13,057 nt of DNA from a virus (taxonomy: Duplodnaviria > Heunggongvirae > Uroviricota > Caudoviricetes), in IMG/VR virus record IMGVR_UViG_2778261569_000004. The stretch is one strand, 5' to 3'. The position numbers were made by a program, and so were the translations under genes. The notes beneath the pieces were generated by a model, which was given only the letters and a program-made list of their open reading frames with translations, was not told the DNA's origin and searched no databases. This document shows, piece after piece, positions 3,597 to 13,057 of the stretch (the first letter of the stretch is position 1; each line of letters starts with the position of its first letter).

Positions 3597-3655
3597 ATGT
3601 AAGTATTTCCTTAACAAATAAGAAGTTATGCGCATCAAATTATGCGCGTTGTATT

Positions 3656-3698
3656 CCCGCATTTCGGCGGGAATGATGACCATGACTGTTAAAGAGCG
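3656..3698 (-). promoter_or_regulatory. nutR site (boxA plus boxB hairpin)
   Basis: On the minus strand just after the cro stop: boxA CGCTCTTTAACA (plus 3687-3698, reverse complement), then boxB hairpin CCCGC-CGAAAT-GCGGG (plus 3656-3671). The boxB sequence is identical to the one at nutL. Confidence 0.6.
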
Positions 3699-3704
3699 GT
3701 GTTA

Positions 3705-3899
3705 CTATTTGTTTTTCTTGTTGCTTGGGAAAGGACGAACTTCCTCTCCAATCACACTGCCATCAGGCTTTACCGTAACCATGATGTTACGGCCTGCCAG
3801 AATGGCCTTGCTGATAGCGCACTGGATTACACCAAAGTCACTGGCTGCTTTAGCCTGTCCATGGATTTTGGCGTAATCGGCAAGTGTCATTCGAATCAT
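3705..3899 (-). CDS. cro: Cro repressor
   Basis: Recognised similarity to lambda Cro (TLADYA..GQ.K.A.D.GV.Q.AI.KAI.AGR.I.....DGSV..EEV.PFPSNKK). Start placed at ATG 3899 with a GGAGAG Shine-Dalgarno 5 nt upstream. Divergent from cI across the operator region. Confidence 0.85.
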
Positions 3900-3929
3900 A
3901 TGCACTCTCCGTTATTAACCATGAACAAA

Positions 3930-3995
3930 GAATACTACAGGTATTCAAAGCAATCAATACTCAGGGTATTTTTAGTTTAAGTACCTTAGCTATTA
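3930..3995. promoter_or_regulatory. OR operator region: three 17-bp operators with divergent PR and PRM promoters
   Basis: Operators GAATACTACAGGTATTC (3930-3946) and CAATACTCAGGGTATTT (3955-3971) are palindromic; a degenerate third site AAGTACCTTAGCTATTA lies at 3979-3995. Centre spacings are 25 and 24 bp. PR candidate on the minus strand: -35 TTGATT, 17-bp spacer, -10 TATTCT. PRM candidate on the plus strand: -10 TAGAAT at 3994-3999, which places +1 at about the A of the cI ATG (leaderless; no Shine-Dalgarno before cI). Confidence 0.6.
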
Positions 3996-4005
3996 GAATT
4001 AAGCT

Positions 4006-4722
4006 ATGGAAAATAAAAAATCACTGACGACAGAACAGCTCGAAGACGCTAAGCGGCTTAAGGCTTTGTATGAGTCAAAAAAGAAAGAATTGGGAATAAC
4101 CCAATACTCAATCGCTGATGAACTGGGTATCACCCAAGGAGCGGTAGGGCATTATCTTAATGGCAGAAACGCGCTAAACGTTGAGGTCGCATCTGGTTTT
4201 GCACGTTTGTTGCAAGTCTCAATTGCTGATTTTAGCCAGTCAATTGCTGCCAAGGTTGCAGAACAGGCAGAAAGCCTTAAGAGCGATGCCAACGTAAGGT
4301 ATGCAGGGGAATACAGAGCAGGAAAGAGGTATCCGGTGTTAAGCAGTATCCAGGCTGGCTCGTGGTGTGAAGCATGCGAACCATACACCATTAAAGACAT
4401 AGATGTTTGGCTTGAGTCTGACGCGCATATTCAAGGTAATGCGTTCTGGCTTAAAGTGGAAGGTGATTCAATGACGGCACCGGTTGGGTTAAGCATTCCA
4501 GAGGGAACATTCGTTCTTTTCGATACCGGAAGGGAGGCGATCAACGGCAGCTTGGTCATAGCAAAACTTTCTGACTCTAACGAAGCAACATTCAAGAAGC
4601 TGATAATCGACGGCGGAAATAAATACCTCAAGGGACTTAATCCTGCATGGCCTCTCGTGCCAATCAATGGAAACTGCAAGATTATAGGCGTTGCAATTGA
4701 GACAAAACTAAGGCTGGTTTGA
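4006..4722 (+). CDS. cI: CI repressor (HTH DNA-binding domain plus LexA/S24-type autocleavage domain)
   Basis: Recognised similarity to lambda CI: N-terminal LTxEQLEDAKRLKALYE.KK.ELG..Q.S.AD..G and C-terminal FWL.VEGDSMTAP ... ATFKKLI (Ser/Lys dyad). Divergent from cro. Confidence 0.9.
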   Translation: MENKKSLTTEQLEDAKRLKALYESKKKELGITQYSIADELGITQGAVGHYLNGRNALNVEVASGFARLLQVSIADFSQSIAAKVAEQAESLKSDANVRYAGEYRAGKRYPVLSSIQAGSWCEACEPYTIKDIDVWLESDAHIQGNAFWLKVEGDSMTAPVGLSIPEGTFVLFDTGREAINGSLVIAKLSDSNEATFKKLIIDGGNKYLKGLNPAWPLVPINGNCKIIGVAIETKLRLV

Positions 4723-4739
4723 TCACGCAAGGGGCGATT

Positions 4740-5108
4740 ATGGTTGGAACCGCTATAGCAAGCTTTTTTGGGATGTTGGCAATCTCGACAATTTACGGCT
4801 TAGCGCATGCTTTTATTGCGAAATCTCTATCAGAAAAAATAAGCCAGGCTTGGGCGCATAGATCAGCTCGTTTCATGATTCTGGTGATCATAGCAATACA
4901 AGGGATATCTGCATTTATCCTCTATGGATCAAGCTTATACCTATTGTATCAAGGCGCGACATTTACGCCTTACACCAGTGATTACGGAACTCTATACGAT
5001 GGTAGTGAAGACATCACTGTGGCTTGGATCGTCTTTGGTTTATCTATGGCCGTGTCTGTTGTAGCAGACATCATTAAGGTAATTCTCGTCTTAACCTTCG
5101 CTGACTAA
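4740..5108 (+). CDS. Small integral membrane protein in the rex/sie position, co-transcribed with cI (candidate superinfection-exclusion or defence protein)
   Basis: ORF track frame 4719..5108; start placed at ATG 4740 with an AAGGGG Shine-Dalgarno, 18 nt after the cI stop. Three hydrophobic helices predicted by eye (about residues 1-25, 45-70 and 95-120). It occupies the lambda rexAB slot between cI and OL. No homologue recognised. Confidence 0.6.
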   Translation: MVGTAIASFFGMLAISTIYGLAHAFIAKSLSEKISQAWAHRSARFMILVIIAIQGISAFILYGSSLYLLYQGATFTPYTSDYGTLYDGSEDITVAWIVFGLSMAVSVVADIIKVILVLTFAD

Positions 5109-5193
5109 CCTATAATCCCGGCAGCAATAGCTATCGGGATCCACTTCACATATCCCGCATAAAAAGCACTGAACAAGCAGACACCGAAAAAAT

Positions 5194-5281
5194 AAATATC
5201 CTTTGTATTCATTTGCTTATCATTATTTCACCAAAAATAAATACCTTGGGTATTTACACAATAAAATACCTACAGTATTCT
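5194..5281 (+). promoter_or_regulatory. OL operator region and PL promoter
   Basis: Three 17-bp operators of the same family as OR: AAATATCCTTTGTATTC (5194-5210), AAATACCTTGGGTATTT (5239-5255) and AAATACCTACAGTATTC (5264-5280). PL candidate: -35 TTTACA (5253-5258), 17-bp spacer, -10 TATTCT (5276-5281), overlapping the operators as in lambda. Confidence 0.55.
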
Positions 5282-5326
5282 TTAGCCATCAGCAGGGCGC
5301 TGGAAGCCAAACGGAACAGATTGGCA

Positions 5327-5367
5327 GGCTCTTTAACATTGATGGGATTGTCCCGCCGAAATGCGGG
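5327..5367 (+). promoter_or_regulatory. nutL site (boxA plus boxB hairpin)
   Basis: boxA GGCTCTTTAACA (5327-5338) followed by boxB CCCGC-CGAAAT-GCGGG (5352-5367), identical to the boxB at nutR; lies in the leader between PL and N. Confidence 0.6.
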
Positions 5368-5475
5368 AACCAAAGAGTAGTTGGCTTTGGGGTGACGTGA
5401 AGTGCAGCTGCACGACGGCAACCGGAAGATAAGCACCCGGCGCGTCACCGCCAAAGTCAATCATCGGAGGTCAAC

Positions 5476-5748
5476 ATGACAGTAGTCATTACATATCTGG
5501 CTGACGATAACGCCAGAAATCGCCGCAGAGCACGCAGACAGGCTCAACGTGAACAGGCAATGCAAGAGCAGCGACTGGCACGAAAAATTGCGCTAAAGCT
5601 CTCTGGTTGCGTCAGAGCAGATAAAGCAGCATCACTCGGAAGCCTTTGCTGCAAGGAAGAAGATGAACGCAGTGGAAGTATTTGCCTGCCAAACGTAGCC
5701 ATTTACGCGGCAGGATACCGGAAATCAAAACAACTGACAGCGAGGTAA
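5476..5748 (+). CDS. N: Antitermination protein N (P22 gene 24-like)
   Basis: N-terminal arginine-rich motif NARNRRRARRQAQREQ (boxB RNA-binding ARM); C-terminus ...AIYAAGYRKSKQLTAR resembles my recollection of P22 gp24; GGAGG Shine-Dalgarno; first gene downstream of PL and nutL. Confidence 0.8.
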   Translation: MTVVITYLADDNARNRRRARRQAQREQAMQEQRLARKIALKLSGCVRADKAASLGSLCCKEEDERSGSICLPNVAIYAAGYRKSKQLTAR

Positions 5749-6374: not shown

Positions 6375-6845
6375 ATGACAAAATCATGGAGCGTACCTTT
6401 TCCTGAATCAGAAACTGAACATGATGGAATGCCTGTTTTCTGGAGATTCCAAGCGACAGTTGAAGAAGATGGAATCAAAATATTCGCACTTCAATATATA
6501 GCTTTTCATCAGACAGATCATTATGCATGGTTGGTTCCTGCGCATTGGATTGTTAATTTTAAACCAGCACCAAATCAGTGGTTACAGGAATGGAAACAAA
6601 GGAGAAATAGATATGCAATTAAGAAAGTAGCAAAAAATGCCGAAAGATCTTTTGCATTCCCGACGAAGAAACTTGCCATTGAAAGTTTATTGCGCCGGAA
6701 GAAGTACCATTTAATGAGAATCAAACAAGATTTGGCTGTTGTATCAACTCTTGTTGATGGGATGAAGAATATTGATACATCAATACCAGATATTGAATAT
6801 AACTTTGGACACAACCAAGAAACAGAAAATTGGGTGTTTTATTAG
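6375..6845 (+). CDS. Hypothetical protein on a low-GC moron-like insert (156 aa)
   Basis: ATG 6375 with a GAGGTGA Shine-Dalgarno. A hand count over the first 300 nt gives roughly 37% G+C, against roughly 45% at the start of erf. Bracketed by the terminator at 6298-6327 upstream and by an inverted repeat (6860-6887) and terminator-like hairpin (6951-6974) downstream. No family recognised. Confidence 0.6.
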   Translation: MTKSWSVPFPESETEHDGMPVFWRFQATVEEDGIKIFALQYIAFHQTDHYAWLVPAHWIVNFKPAPNQWLQEWKQRRNRYAIKKVAKNAERSFAFPTKKLAIESLLRRKKYHLMRIKQDLAVVSTLVDGMKNIDTSIPDIEYNFGHNQETENWVFY

Positions 6846-11902: not shown

Positions 11903-12094
11903 ATGACCGATACCAGCCTGATTCCTGAGAAAGAAGTGATGAACAAGCTCGGTGTTTCATCACGTCAGACAATCTGGAACTATACCAAACGACACGGATT
12001 TCCGAAGCCAGTCAGAACCCACCCCAAATCATACCTTCGTGAAGCTGTTGAAGGGTGGATTCTTAACGGTGGCGTTAATCAGAAATGCTCCTGA
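11903..12094 (+). CDS. xis: AlpA-type excisionase / DNA-binding regulator
   Basis: AlpA-family pattern (EVMNKLGVSSRQTIWNYTKRHGFPKPVR...W). The 3' end overlaps the integrase 3' end, convergently. Confidence 0.55.
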   Translation: MTDTSLIPEKEVMNKLGVSSRQTIWNYTKRHGFPKPVRTHPKSYLREAVEGWILNGGVNQKCS

Positions 12095-12499
12095 TGTGCC
12101 AGAACAATTTATCAGCGTGAAGCTCATACGCTTTGCGCTGAGCCTCTATCCAATCGTGTTTATTGTATACGGACATTATCCCGCCAAGTTCATGACCGAG
12201 CATTCGCTCAGTAACATGAGGCTCGACATTCATCTCGGACAGACGTGTAACAAGCGTTCTTCTGAAATCATGTGTTCGCCAGTAACCTAGATCCATCCCT
12301 CCCCTTATTCTATTTACGAATCGGTTGGCTGCAGCGATGCTGATCGGTTTGTTTATGTCTTCTCCAGGGAAAAGAACATCATTGTACGTTGTCATGGCCT
12401 TTTCGAGAAAAGGCTTAATTTGTTCGAAGATTGGACGACGGATAACATTACCCATCTTGCTATGCTCTTTCGGTACGGTCCATACGTTGTCCAGCAGGT
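12075..12499 (-). pseudogene. int: Tyrosine integrase, C-terminal catalytic fragment only; N-terminal part displaced by an IS insertion
   Basis: Catalytic motifs HDFRRT and LGHELGGIMSVYNKHDW (Tyr nucleophile) present. The reading frame runs upstream without a stop to the IS terminus at 12500; the conserved box I Arg and the N-terminal domain are absent from this side. Confidence 0.75.

Positions 12500-13057
<558 letters not shown>

What the first reader, a model, noticed from the sequence alone, without database searches (positions are those of the whole stretch)
4740..5108. Uncharacterised three-helix membrane protein coupled to cI in the rex/sie slot
The gene starts 18 nt after the cI stop, on the same strand and upstream of OL/PL, so it would be expressed from PRM in the lysogen, exactly where lambda keeps rexAB. 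That slot is a known hotspot for prophage-encoded exclusion or abortive-infection genes. This protein is a single 122-aa polypeptide with three predicted transmembrane helices and no RexA partner, and I recognise no family. It is the strongest candidate here for a lysogen-expressed defence function, possibly a membrane-depolarising effector.
Basis: partly seen in the sequence, partly recalled or inferred. Interest (0 to 1): 0.7.

Follow-up and report, generated by a model that had tools for sequence, protein, structure and literature searches.

The report
HkaS: membrane protein behind prophage repressor
The gene is real and sits just after the prophage repressor gene, where phage lambda keeps its rex defence genes; it encodes a small three-helix membrane protein already catalogued as HkaS of phage HK620, whose function nobody has tested, so it is a reasonable but unproven candidate for protecting the host cell from other phages.

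Summary
Window 4740-5108 (+) is an intact 122-aa ORF. It starts 17 nt after the cI stop, has its own Shine-Dalgarno, and lies upstream of OL/PL, nutL and N.

It is not unknown to databases. It is HkaS of coliphage HK620 (99% identical, annotated 'unknown') and PHROG 6534 ('unknown function').

Hydropathy, loop charges and a confident AlphaFold model (pLDDT 92) agree on three membrane helices, N-terminus out and C-terminus in. Loop 1 is basic and cytoplasmic. Loop 2 is an acidic periplasmic hairpin.

The family is tiny: 12 clusters among 5.8 billion proteins. An exhaustive profile search of 1.84 billion representatives found no remote relatives. There was no match to RexB, SieA, SieB, holins, Pfam, NCBIfam, PADLOC or any solved or predicted fold.

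In every lineage the gene is locked between this cI type and OL. It occurs in 145 of 5426 complete E. coli genomes, the same number as cI. All 80 viral contigs examined carry an intact ORF. It evolves about four to nine times faster than cI but remains under purifying selection.

Function is untested. My best guess is an inner-membrane block on incoming phage DNA. A RexB-like depolarising effector is possible but needs more assumptions.

The parts
4740..5108 (+). hkaS: 122-aa three-helix inner-membrane protein (stop codon included). Predicted TM1 about 3-27, basic cytoplasmic loop 28-44, TM2 45-70, acidic periplasmic beta-hairpin loop 71-92, TM3 93-121.
   Evidence: ORF and translation. 99.2-100% identical to HK620 HkaS and mEpX2. 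PHROG 6534. AF2 pLDDT 92. Hydropathy and insertion energy. Loop charges kept in 5 lineages.
4728..4733 (+). Shine-Dalgarno AAGGGG of hkaS, in the 17-nt spacer after the cI stop.
   Evidence: Read from the sequence. An AAGGA/AAGGGG motif precedes the ATG in all lineages. The only indels among 80 loci are 1-2 nt here.
4006..4722 (+). cI repressor (HTH_3 + Peptidase_S24), the upstream gene of the presumed PRM operon.
   Evidence: Pfam. HK620 annotation.
3971..3999 (+). Candidate PRM: -35 TTTAGT 3971-3976 abutting OR2, -10 TAGAAT 3994-3999. This would start the transcript at or next to the cI ATG (leaderless, as in lambda).
   Evidence: My reading of the sequence. It is below the threshold of the promoter scan. 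Inference by analogy with lambda PRM, not shown.
3930..3995 (.). OR1-OR3 operators (GAATACTACAGGTATTC, CAATACTCAGGGTATTT, AAGTACCTTAGCTATTA).
   Evidence: HK620 record, mapped through the constant offset. Repeat family D1 and ATAC-N5-GTAT search.
5115..5140 (+). Stem-loop 7 nt after the hkaS stop (7+3 bp, no U-tract). Possible 3' end or stabiliser of the cI-hkaS transcript.
   Evidence: RNA folding. Each diverged lineage has a different, non-homologous stem-loop at the same place. Function is inferred.
5194..5210 (.). Extra operator-like palindrome AAATATCCTTTGTATTC, invariant in all lineages. The HK620 record annotates tIMM over this stretch.
   Evidence: Alignment of 5 lineages. Repeat family D1. 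HK620 annotation.
5239..5281 (+). OL2 and OL1 operators (5239-5255, 5264-5280) and PL (TTTACA, 17 nt, TATTCT; 5253-5281).
   Evidence: Promoter scan. HK620 annotation. Conservation.
5328..5368 (+). nutL: boxA-like GCTCTTTAACA and boxB hairpin CCCGCCGAAATGCGGG.
   Evidence: Sequence. HK620 nutL annotation. boxA conserved in all lineages.
5476..5748 (+). N antiterminator, first gene of the PL operon. It marks the far side of the slot.
   Evidence: PF25694 and phrog_271.

Best explanation
The ORF is hkaS, the second gene of the repressor (PRM) operon of the HK620-type immunity module. Its product is a 122-aa protein of the cytoplasmic membrane. It has three helices, with the N-terminus in the periplasm and the C-terminus in the cytoplasm. 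A basic loop faces the cytoplasm and a small acidic, aromatic-rich hairpin faces the periplasm.

I think it most likely acts as a superinfection-exclusion factor. In that reading it is made continuously in the lysogen together with cI. It sits in the inner membrane and stops the DNA of incoming phages from crossing. These would be phages that cI cannot repress. It would do so by binding the phage's ejection or tape-measure conduit, or the host membrane component that the conduit uses. The cell is not killed.

Shown: gene structure, position, conservation, membrane character and topology signals. Inferred: transcription from PRM, membrane localisation in vivo, and the exclusion function itself.
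For: Position.
- The gene lies 17 nt after cI with its own SD, and no promoter or terminator signal lies between them.
- It is upstream of OL/PL.
- The HK620 record puts tIMM after it.

Linkage.
- The order cro/cI/hkaS/N is the same in all five diverged lineages, from E. coli, Hafnia, Salmonella and two metagenomic lineages. Replication, N and recombination modules differ among them.
- cI and hkaS are each found in 145 of 5426 complete E. coli genomes, at 146 places each.

Selection.
- The length is exactly 122 aa with no indels in any lineage.
- 80 of 80 viral-contig copies are intact.
- pN/pS is 0.36 within E. coli, and pN is about 0.3 against pS of about 0.8 between lineages.

Fast evolution relative to cI.
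- dN is 0.33-0.42 against 0.083 for cI.
- Polymorphism is 22 nonsynonymous to 19 synonymous in hkaS, against 5 to 37 in cI (Fisher p 5.5e-5).
- The periplasmic loop is the least conserved part (52% pairwise, 4 of 22 invariant). This fits contact with changing phage parts.

Architecture.
- There are three TM helices with only 17- and 22-residue loops, hence no soluble sensor or enzyme domain.
- This is the build of known injection blockers. [quoted passage not shown]

The slot carries alternative cargo in related phages (PMC2629481).
Against: - There is no experimental datum on this protein: no paper names it and no lysogen RNA or plating data were found.
- It shows no sequence or fold relation to any exclusion protein. 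hhalign probability is at most 0.7% against RexB, SieA and SieB. PADLOC gave no hit. Fold searches gave nothing specific.
- The raised pN/pS could simply be relaxed constraint on a small membrane protein.
- The best-conserved parts face the cytoplasm or lie inside the membrane. These are the loop KIsQAWxHRxARF, and the invariant Q54, D110, K113 and C-terminal ILVLTFAD. That would equally suit an ion path or a cytoplasmic or intramembrane host partner.
- The module rides in phages with different virion types: P22-like HK620, lambda-like HK630, Stx phages. There is therefore no hint of which incoming phages would be targeted.
Confidence: 0.38

Rival explanations
1. Abortive-infection effector. 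HkaS would be a latent pore or channel in the inner membrane, working like RexB but without RexA. A component of an infecting phage would open it, collapsing membrane potential and stopping the infection at the cost of the cell.
For: - It occupies the same slot as rexAB.
- It is an all-helical small membrane protein.
- Polar and charged residues inside the helices are invariant (Q54, S106, D110, K113), as expected for an ion path.
- Its N-out/C-in three-helix topology matches that of class I holins (holin topology from general knowledge).
Against: - It has no sensor partner and no soluble domain, only 17- and 22-residue loops, so the trigger would have to act inside the membrane or periplasm.
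- It shows no relation to RexB or the P22/lambda-type holin (hhalign probability 0.7% and 0.5%).
- It lacks the charged C-terminal tail typical of holins; the protein ends at the end of TM3.
- It has no PADLOC match.
- Constitutive co-expression with cI would require the pore to be very tightly closed.
Confidence: 0.15
2. A lysogen-fitness or lysogeny-maintenance factor unrelated to excluding other phages. It would be a small membrane protein that modulates a host membrane protein such as a protease (for example FtsH), a transporter or a sensor. That could tune prophage stability or host physiology. Comparable side activities are reported for RexB, and phage 434 Hex stabilises its repressor.
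For: - Linkage to one cI lineage is strict and ancient. dS is saturated, yet the pair is never separated.
- The cytoplasmic loop is the most conserved region (71% pairwise, 9 of 17 invariant), suggesting a conserved host or phage partner on the cytoplasmic side.
- The 434-type slot holds a 'repressor protection protein' (annotation under hit H82).
Against: - The linkage is also explained trivially. A gene between cI and OL cannot be exchanged without breaking the immunity module.
- Close relatives of this cI do without any gene in the slot (Serratia OS31, cI 71% identical), so cI function does not need it.
- No homology to any known modulator.
Confidence: 0.2
3. A hitch-hiking ORF with little or no function, trapped between cI and OL and therefore inherited with the immunity module.
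For: - The family is very narrow: 12 clusters in 5.8 billion proteins, and 2 representatives in 1.84 billion.
- The proportion of nonsynonymous polymorphism is much higher than in cI.
- GC content is only slightly below its neighbours, at 42% against 46%.
Against: - The ORF is intact at exactly 122 aa, without a single indel, across lineages whose synonymous sites are saturated.
- 80 of 80 copies are intact.
- pN/pS is 0.36, clearly below 1.
- 46 of 122 positions are invariant, including buried charges.
- The SD is conserved.
Confidence: 0.07
4. An immunity protein against a pore-forming toxin or a holin, in the manner of the three- or four-helix immunity proteins of pore-forming colicins.
For: Its size and three-helix membrane build resemble colicin E1-type immunity proteins (general knowledge). 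Conserved intramembrane residues could mediate helix-helix recognition.
Against: - No toxin gene lies in the module.
- No match to colicin-immunity or any other Pfam family, even at E up to 1.
Confidence: 0.05

Closest known systems
HkaS of coliphage HK620 (AAK28867; GenBank AF335538), also mEpX2, HK630, HK140 and Stx2c phages; PHROG 6534
   Same: It is the same protein, 97.5-100% identical over the full length. It sits in the same place between cI and tIMM/OL.
   Different: Nothing differs. Those records give the function as 'unknown' or 'hypothetical', so identity brings a name but no mechanism.
Lambda RexB (with RexA), repressor-operon abortive-infection system
   Same: Same genomic slot and presumed PRM co-transcription. 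Both are small polytopic inner-membrane proteins.
   Different: No sequence relation (hhalign probability 0.7%) and no Pfam or PADLOC RexB hit. HkaS is 122 aa with three helices, whereas RexB is 144 aa. There is no RexA-like sensor gene.
P22 SieA (inner-membrane superinfection exclusion protein)
   Same: Both are prophage-encoded and lack a soluble domain. SieA has three predicted transmembrane domains and acts alone (PMC10883804). This is the closest functional model.
   Different: No sequence relation (hhalign probability 0.3%). SieA is 162-164 aa with a cytoplasmic FxRYPxEAxxFNK motif that is absent here. SieA lies in the immI/ant region with its own promoter, not behind the repressor.
Other occupants of the repressor-downstream slot: 434/Sf101 hex-type ORF, epsilon34 genes 44/45, Enterobacter phage BHUENT3 two-gene pair
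   Same: Same position downstream of a LexA-type repressor on the same strand.
   Different: The sequences are unrelated. The hex-type ORF overlaps the repressor stop and is annotated as a repressor protection protein. BHUENT3 has a Cys-rich soluble protein plus a coiled-coil protein with one C-terminal TM helix.

Membership tests
HkaS / PHROG 6534 | Full-length sequence match to the family profile | tested here: met
   phrog_6534 E 2.4e-79, residues 1-122 on profile positions 1-122. 99.2% identical to HK620 HkaS.
HkaS / PHROG 6534 | Position immediately downstream of the HK620-type cI, upstream of OL/PL | tested here: met
   145 genomes each for cI and hkaS.
Lambda RexAB system | RexB homology (Pfam/PADLOC RexB model or profile match) | tested here: not met
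   No Pfam hit at E<=1 other than two sub-threshold unrelated families. No PADLOC hit at E<=10. hhalign probability 0.7%.
Lambda RexAB system | A RexA-type cytoplasmic sensor gene adjacent to the membrane component | tested here: not met
   Only one ORF lies between cI and OL.
Lambda RexAB system | Co-transcription with cI from PRM in the lysogen | not testable with these tools
   Consistent with the 17-nt spacing and the absence of intervening signals, but no RNA data.
Lambda RexAB system | Loss of membrane potential and abortive infection on phage attack | not testable with these tools
   Needs experiment.
P22 SieA family | Sequence similarity, including the conserved cytoplasmic motif FxRYPxEAxxFNK (PMC10883804) | tested here: not met
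   hhalign probability 0.3%. The motif is absent from the 122-aa sequence.
P22 SieA family | Inner-membrane protein with about three TM helices that acts alone | tested here: inconclusive
   Three TM helices are predicted. Localisation and sufficiency are untested.
P22 SieA family | Blocks DNA injection of specific phages | not testable with these tools
   Needs plating and DNA-entry assays.
SieB (P22/lambda) | Sequence similarity to SieB | tested here: not met
   hhalign probability 0.1%. No Pfam hit.
Class I holins (lambda S / P22 gp13 type) | Sequence or profile similarity | tested here: not met
   hhalign probability 0.5% against P22 gp13. No holin family in Pfam or PHROGs.
Class I holins (lambda S / P22 gp13 type) | Three TM helices N-out/C-in plus a charged cytoplasmic C-terminal tail; location in the lysis cassette | tested here: not met
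   The topology signals fit. However, the protein ends at TM3 with no tail, and the gene is in the immunity region.

The most novel reading that the evidence does not exclude
HkaS would be the founding member of a new family of stand-alone, sensor-less membrane defence proteins carried inside the immunity module. A conserved intramembrane Asp/Lys pair and a basic cytoplasmic loop would form a gated ion path or a clamp on a host membrane machine. The fast-evolving periplasmic hairpin would recognise the ejection apparatus of incoming phages. This would give a one-protein equivalent of RexAB.
Probability: 0.12. Interest if true: 0.7.

Novelty: new member of a known kind. Interest (0 to 1): 0.4.

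Why it matters
About 1 in 37 complete E. coli genomes (145 of 5426) carries this gene welded to a prophage repressor. Carriers include Shiga-toxin phages and O111 strains. No function is known for it.

If it excludes other phages, it would add a new, very small protein family to the set of prophage-encoded barriers. It would also affect which therapeutic or Stx-converting phages can enter such strains.

The test is cheap: compare cI alone with cI+hkaS on a plasmid, or use clean deletions in HK620 or mEpX2 lysogens. If nothing is found, it remains one more orphan moron in a slot already known to hold variable cargo.

Tried and rejected
Searches for relatives.
- Pfam, NCBIfam and PADLOC gave nothing above threshold. 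Cation_ATPase_C (17.6 bits against a cut-off of 27.3) and TssN (13 against 30.3) are hydrophobic noise.
- The word-indexed search of 5.8 billion proteins and the exhaustive profile search of 1.84 billion representatives found only the family itself.
- hhalign against RexB, SieA, SieB and the P22 holin gave nothing.
- The PDB sequence search gave nothing.

Fold searches.
- Foldseek against BFVD and PDB gave no hit at E<=0.001.
- AFDB50 was not available.

Literature.
- 'hkaS' alone only hits a fungal herbarium code.
- 'hkaS' with HK620 gave no paper, and the accession numbers gave none.
- The HK620 genome paper (PubMed 11518522) is not held.
- The LF82 prophage transcriptome paper reports a transmembrane protein near the Perceval CI expressed 81-fold above background. 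I could not establish that it is related, so it is not used as evidence.

Sequence features considered and rejected.
- An antisense 35-aa hydrophobic ORF (5212..5105) is rejected as a gene. It is interrupted after 10 codons in the Salmonella lineage, and only its operator-overlapping start is conserved.
- An operator-like ATAC-N5-GTAT inside hkaS (4937-4949) is rejected as functional, because synonymous changes destroy it in the other lineages.
- No classical intrinsic terminator was found after hkaS.
- Rfam found nothing in the window.

Full report
What is there

The window is the early region of a lambdoid prophage of E. coli. It is 100% identical over 2.2 kb to prophages of O111:H8/H2 strains.

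On the + strand the gene order is:
- cro (3705-3905, minus strand; PF09048)
- operators OR1-3 (3930-3995)
- cI (4006-4722; HTH_3 + Peptidase_S24)
- the ORF in question (4740-5108)
- operators OL and promoter PL (5239-5281)
- nutL (about 5328-5368)
- N (5476-5748; PF25694)

This comes, and it is the lambda order cI-rex-OL/PL-N.

The ORF begins 17 nt after the cI stop codon and is preceded by AAGGGG. The promoter/terminator scan found no signal between the two genes, and its only sigma-70-like hit in 3600-5600 is PL. By eye there is a weak PRM-like promoter: TTTAGT, 17 nt, TAGAAT, at 3971-3999, next to OR2. It would start transcription at the cI ATG, as in lambda. That is an inference.

Identity

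The protein is HkaS of coliphage HK620 (99.2% identical). It is 100% identical over the aligned residues 1-120 to the homologue in mEpX2 and several other phages, including Stx2c-converting phages.

The HK620 record calls it 'unknown' and annotates tIMM ('termination of cI transcript') after it. RefSeq calls it 'hypothetical protein' (WP_000233126). It fills PHROG 6534, 'unknown function', end to end.

Is it a real gene?

Yes, for four reasons.
- Five lineages (E. coli, Hafnia at 83% identity, Salmonella at 61%, and two metagenomic lineages at 55% and 52%) all encode exactly 122 aa with no indel.
- Between lineages, synonymous sites are saturated (pS about 0.8) while pN is 0.27-0.32.
- All 80 IMG/VR loci retrieved have an intact 122-aa frame. 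Their only indels are 1-2 nt in the spacer at the Shine-Dalgarno.
- The alternative TTG start at 4719 is ruled out by an in-frame stop just before the ATG in Salmonella.

Membrane character and topology

Kyte-Doolittle profiles give three hydrophobic stretches at about 3-27, 45-70 and 93-121. Summed Hessa insertion energies for the best 19-mers are +1.7, -0.2 and +2.2 kcal/mol, against +21 for the loop.

AlphaFold2 with the seven-sequence family alignment gives mean pLDDT 92 and pTM 0.79. It shows helices at 2-29, 31-38, 41-73 and 89-121, and a short beta-hairpin at 78-86.

The first loop carries a net charge of +3 to +5 in every lineage, and the second -1 to -4. By the positive-inside rule the N-terminus and the hairpin face the periplasm, and the basic loop and the C-terminus face the cytoplasm. 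The extramembrane parts are only 17 and 22 residues long, so there is no soluble domain.

How far does the family reach?

Not far.
- The indexed search of 5.8 billion proteins found 12 clusters.
- The exhaustive HMM search of 1.84 billion 50%-identity representatives found two, one of them a fragment.
- Pfam, NCBIfam and PADLOC gave nothing.
- Profile comparison with lambda RexB, P22 SieA, P22 SieB and the P22 holin gave probabilities of at most 0.7%.
- No PDB sequence matched.
- Foldseek against viral and PDB structures gave no hit at E<=0.001.

The fold is a plain three-helix membrane bundle and does not inform on function.

Linkage and evolution

In every locus examined the order cro/cI/hkaS/N is kept. 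The replication genes (lambda-P type, DnaB type, primase type), the N type (N_peptide or N36) and the recombination genes differ.

In complete E. coli genomes, cI and hkaS each occur in 145 of 5426 genomes, at 146 places each. The 2.2-kb cro-to-N query is also covered by at least 80% in 145 records. I therefore saw no copy of this cI type without hkaS, or the reverse. A gene between cI and OL cannot be exchanged without breaking the immunity module, so this linkage does not by itself argue for a functional tie to cI.

hkaS evolves much faster than cI.
- Protein identity is 52-61% for hkaS, against 86-88% for cI.
- dN is 0.33-0.42, against 0.083 for cI.
- Within E. coli, hkaS has 22 nonsynonymous and 19 synonymous polymorphisms (pN/pS 0.36). 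cI has 5 and 37 (pN/pS 0.04). Fisher p is 5.5e-5.

Conservation is uneven.
- The cytoplasmic loop is best kept (71% pairwise).
- The periplasmic loop is worst (52%).
- Q54, S106, D110, K113 and the last eight residues ILVLTFAD are invariant.

The slot

Related repressors carry different things here.
- Lambda has rexAB.
- P22 has nothing.
- Serratia phage OS31, whose cI is 71% identical, has nothing.
- Enterobacter phage BHUENT3 has an unrelated pair: a Cys-rich protein and a coiled-coil protein with one C-terminal TM helix.
- 434 and Sf101 have a hex-type ORF.

The epsilon34 genome paper explicitly compares two orphan genes behind its repressor with rexA and rexB (PMC2629481).

Mechanism

Nothing experimental exists for HkaS in what I could search.

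Given a constitutively made, very small polytopic inner-membrane protein without any sensor domain, I rank a superinfection-exclusion role first (0.38). That means blocking DNA passage at the inner membrane. The working model is P22 SieA, an inner-membrane protein with three predicted TM domains that alone blocks injection (PMC10883804).

The variable periplasmic hairpin and the raised amino-acid substitution rate fit contact with changing phage parts. They fit relaxed constraint as well.

The rivals rank as follows.
The conserved buried Asp/Lys and Gln would suit an ion path. But it needs a trigger that acts within the membrane and a pore that stays shut during constant expression.
- A role in host physiology or lysogen stability is a serious rival (0.2), because the conserved face is cytoplasmic.
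- A functionless hitch-hiker is unlikely (0.07), given the conservation of frame, length and 46 invariant residues.
- A toxin-immunity role has no support beyond shape (0.05).

Novelty and score

The ORF, its position and its name are already in the public record. Its function is not. If it is a defence protein, it is a new family of a known kind. A specialist would not be surprised by a small membrane moron behind a repressor, but the candidate is clean, widespread and easy to test. I score interest at 0.4.

Noticed in passing
window 12075-12455 (-) and 12542-13033 (-): Only the C-terminal 126 aa of the prophage tyrosine integrase remain (PF00589). They abut an IS3-family transposase orfB (rve domains). 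The integrase of this prophage copy is therefore cut by an IS. In the otherwise identical prophage of strain 2009C-3675 the integrase is intact, but an IS1203 sits between cII and cro.
   Followed up: partly
window 6375-6845 (+): A 156-aa ORF after ral in the PL operon has strikingly low GC (36%, GC3 29%, against 46% for the window). It matches only PHROG 1636 (unknown function) and no Pfam family. It looks like a moron and is a second candidate accessory gene.
   Followed up: partly
window 5105-5212 (-): An antisense 35-aa hydrophobic ORF (MNTKDIYFFGVCLFSAFYAGYVKWIPIAIAAGIIG) is convergent with hkaS and overlaps it by 4 nt. Only its first codons, which lie in an operator-like site, are conserved. 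In the Salmonella lineage it stops after 10 codons. It is probably not a gene.
   Followed up: yes
window 5194-5210: An operator-like palindrome AAATATCCTTTGTATTC lies 45 bp left of OL2 and is invariant in all five lineages. The HK620 record annotates tIMM over it and places OL3 at the equivalent of 5217-5233, which fits the operator consensus poorly. The true third (or fourth) OL site may be misplaced in that annotation.
   Followed up: partly
window 5115-5140; L003 5381-5421; L007 5383-5412; L011 1832-1859: Each diverged lineage has a different, non-homologous stem-loop a few bases after the hkaS stop. None has a U-tract. The feature is kept while the sequence is not, which suggests a 3'-end or stabilising hairpin for the cI-hkaS RNA.
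   Followed up: partly
L094 2163-2366 (E. coli ETEC1747), equivalent to between window 5461 and 5462: Some relatives carry a 204-nt insertion between nutL and the N ribosome-binding site. It is flanked by near-repeats (CAAAGTCAAT... / ...CCAAAGTTGTTTCATCGGAGG). Several genomes show the same extra ~200-250 nt.
   Followed up: no
window 4937-4949: The fifth ATAC-N5-GTAT in the window lies inside hkaS, over the invariant YLLY codons. The other four are OR1, OR2, OL2 and OL1, and 0.3 such sites are expected by chance. The DNA motif is not kept in other lineages, so it is probably a coincidence of codon choice.
   Followed up: yes
L096 2470-3186 (Enterobacter phage BHUENT3): Two ORFs lie behind a repressor whose C-terminal domain is 65% identical to this cI. 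One is a 127-aa protein with two CxxC pairs. The other is a 109-aa protein with a Gly-rich stretch, a coiled-coil-like repeat and one C-terminal TM helix. This is an unannotated two-gene cassette in the rex slot, reminiscent of a sensor plus membrane effector.
   Followed up: no
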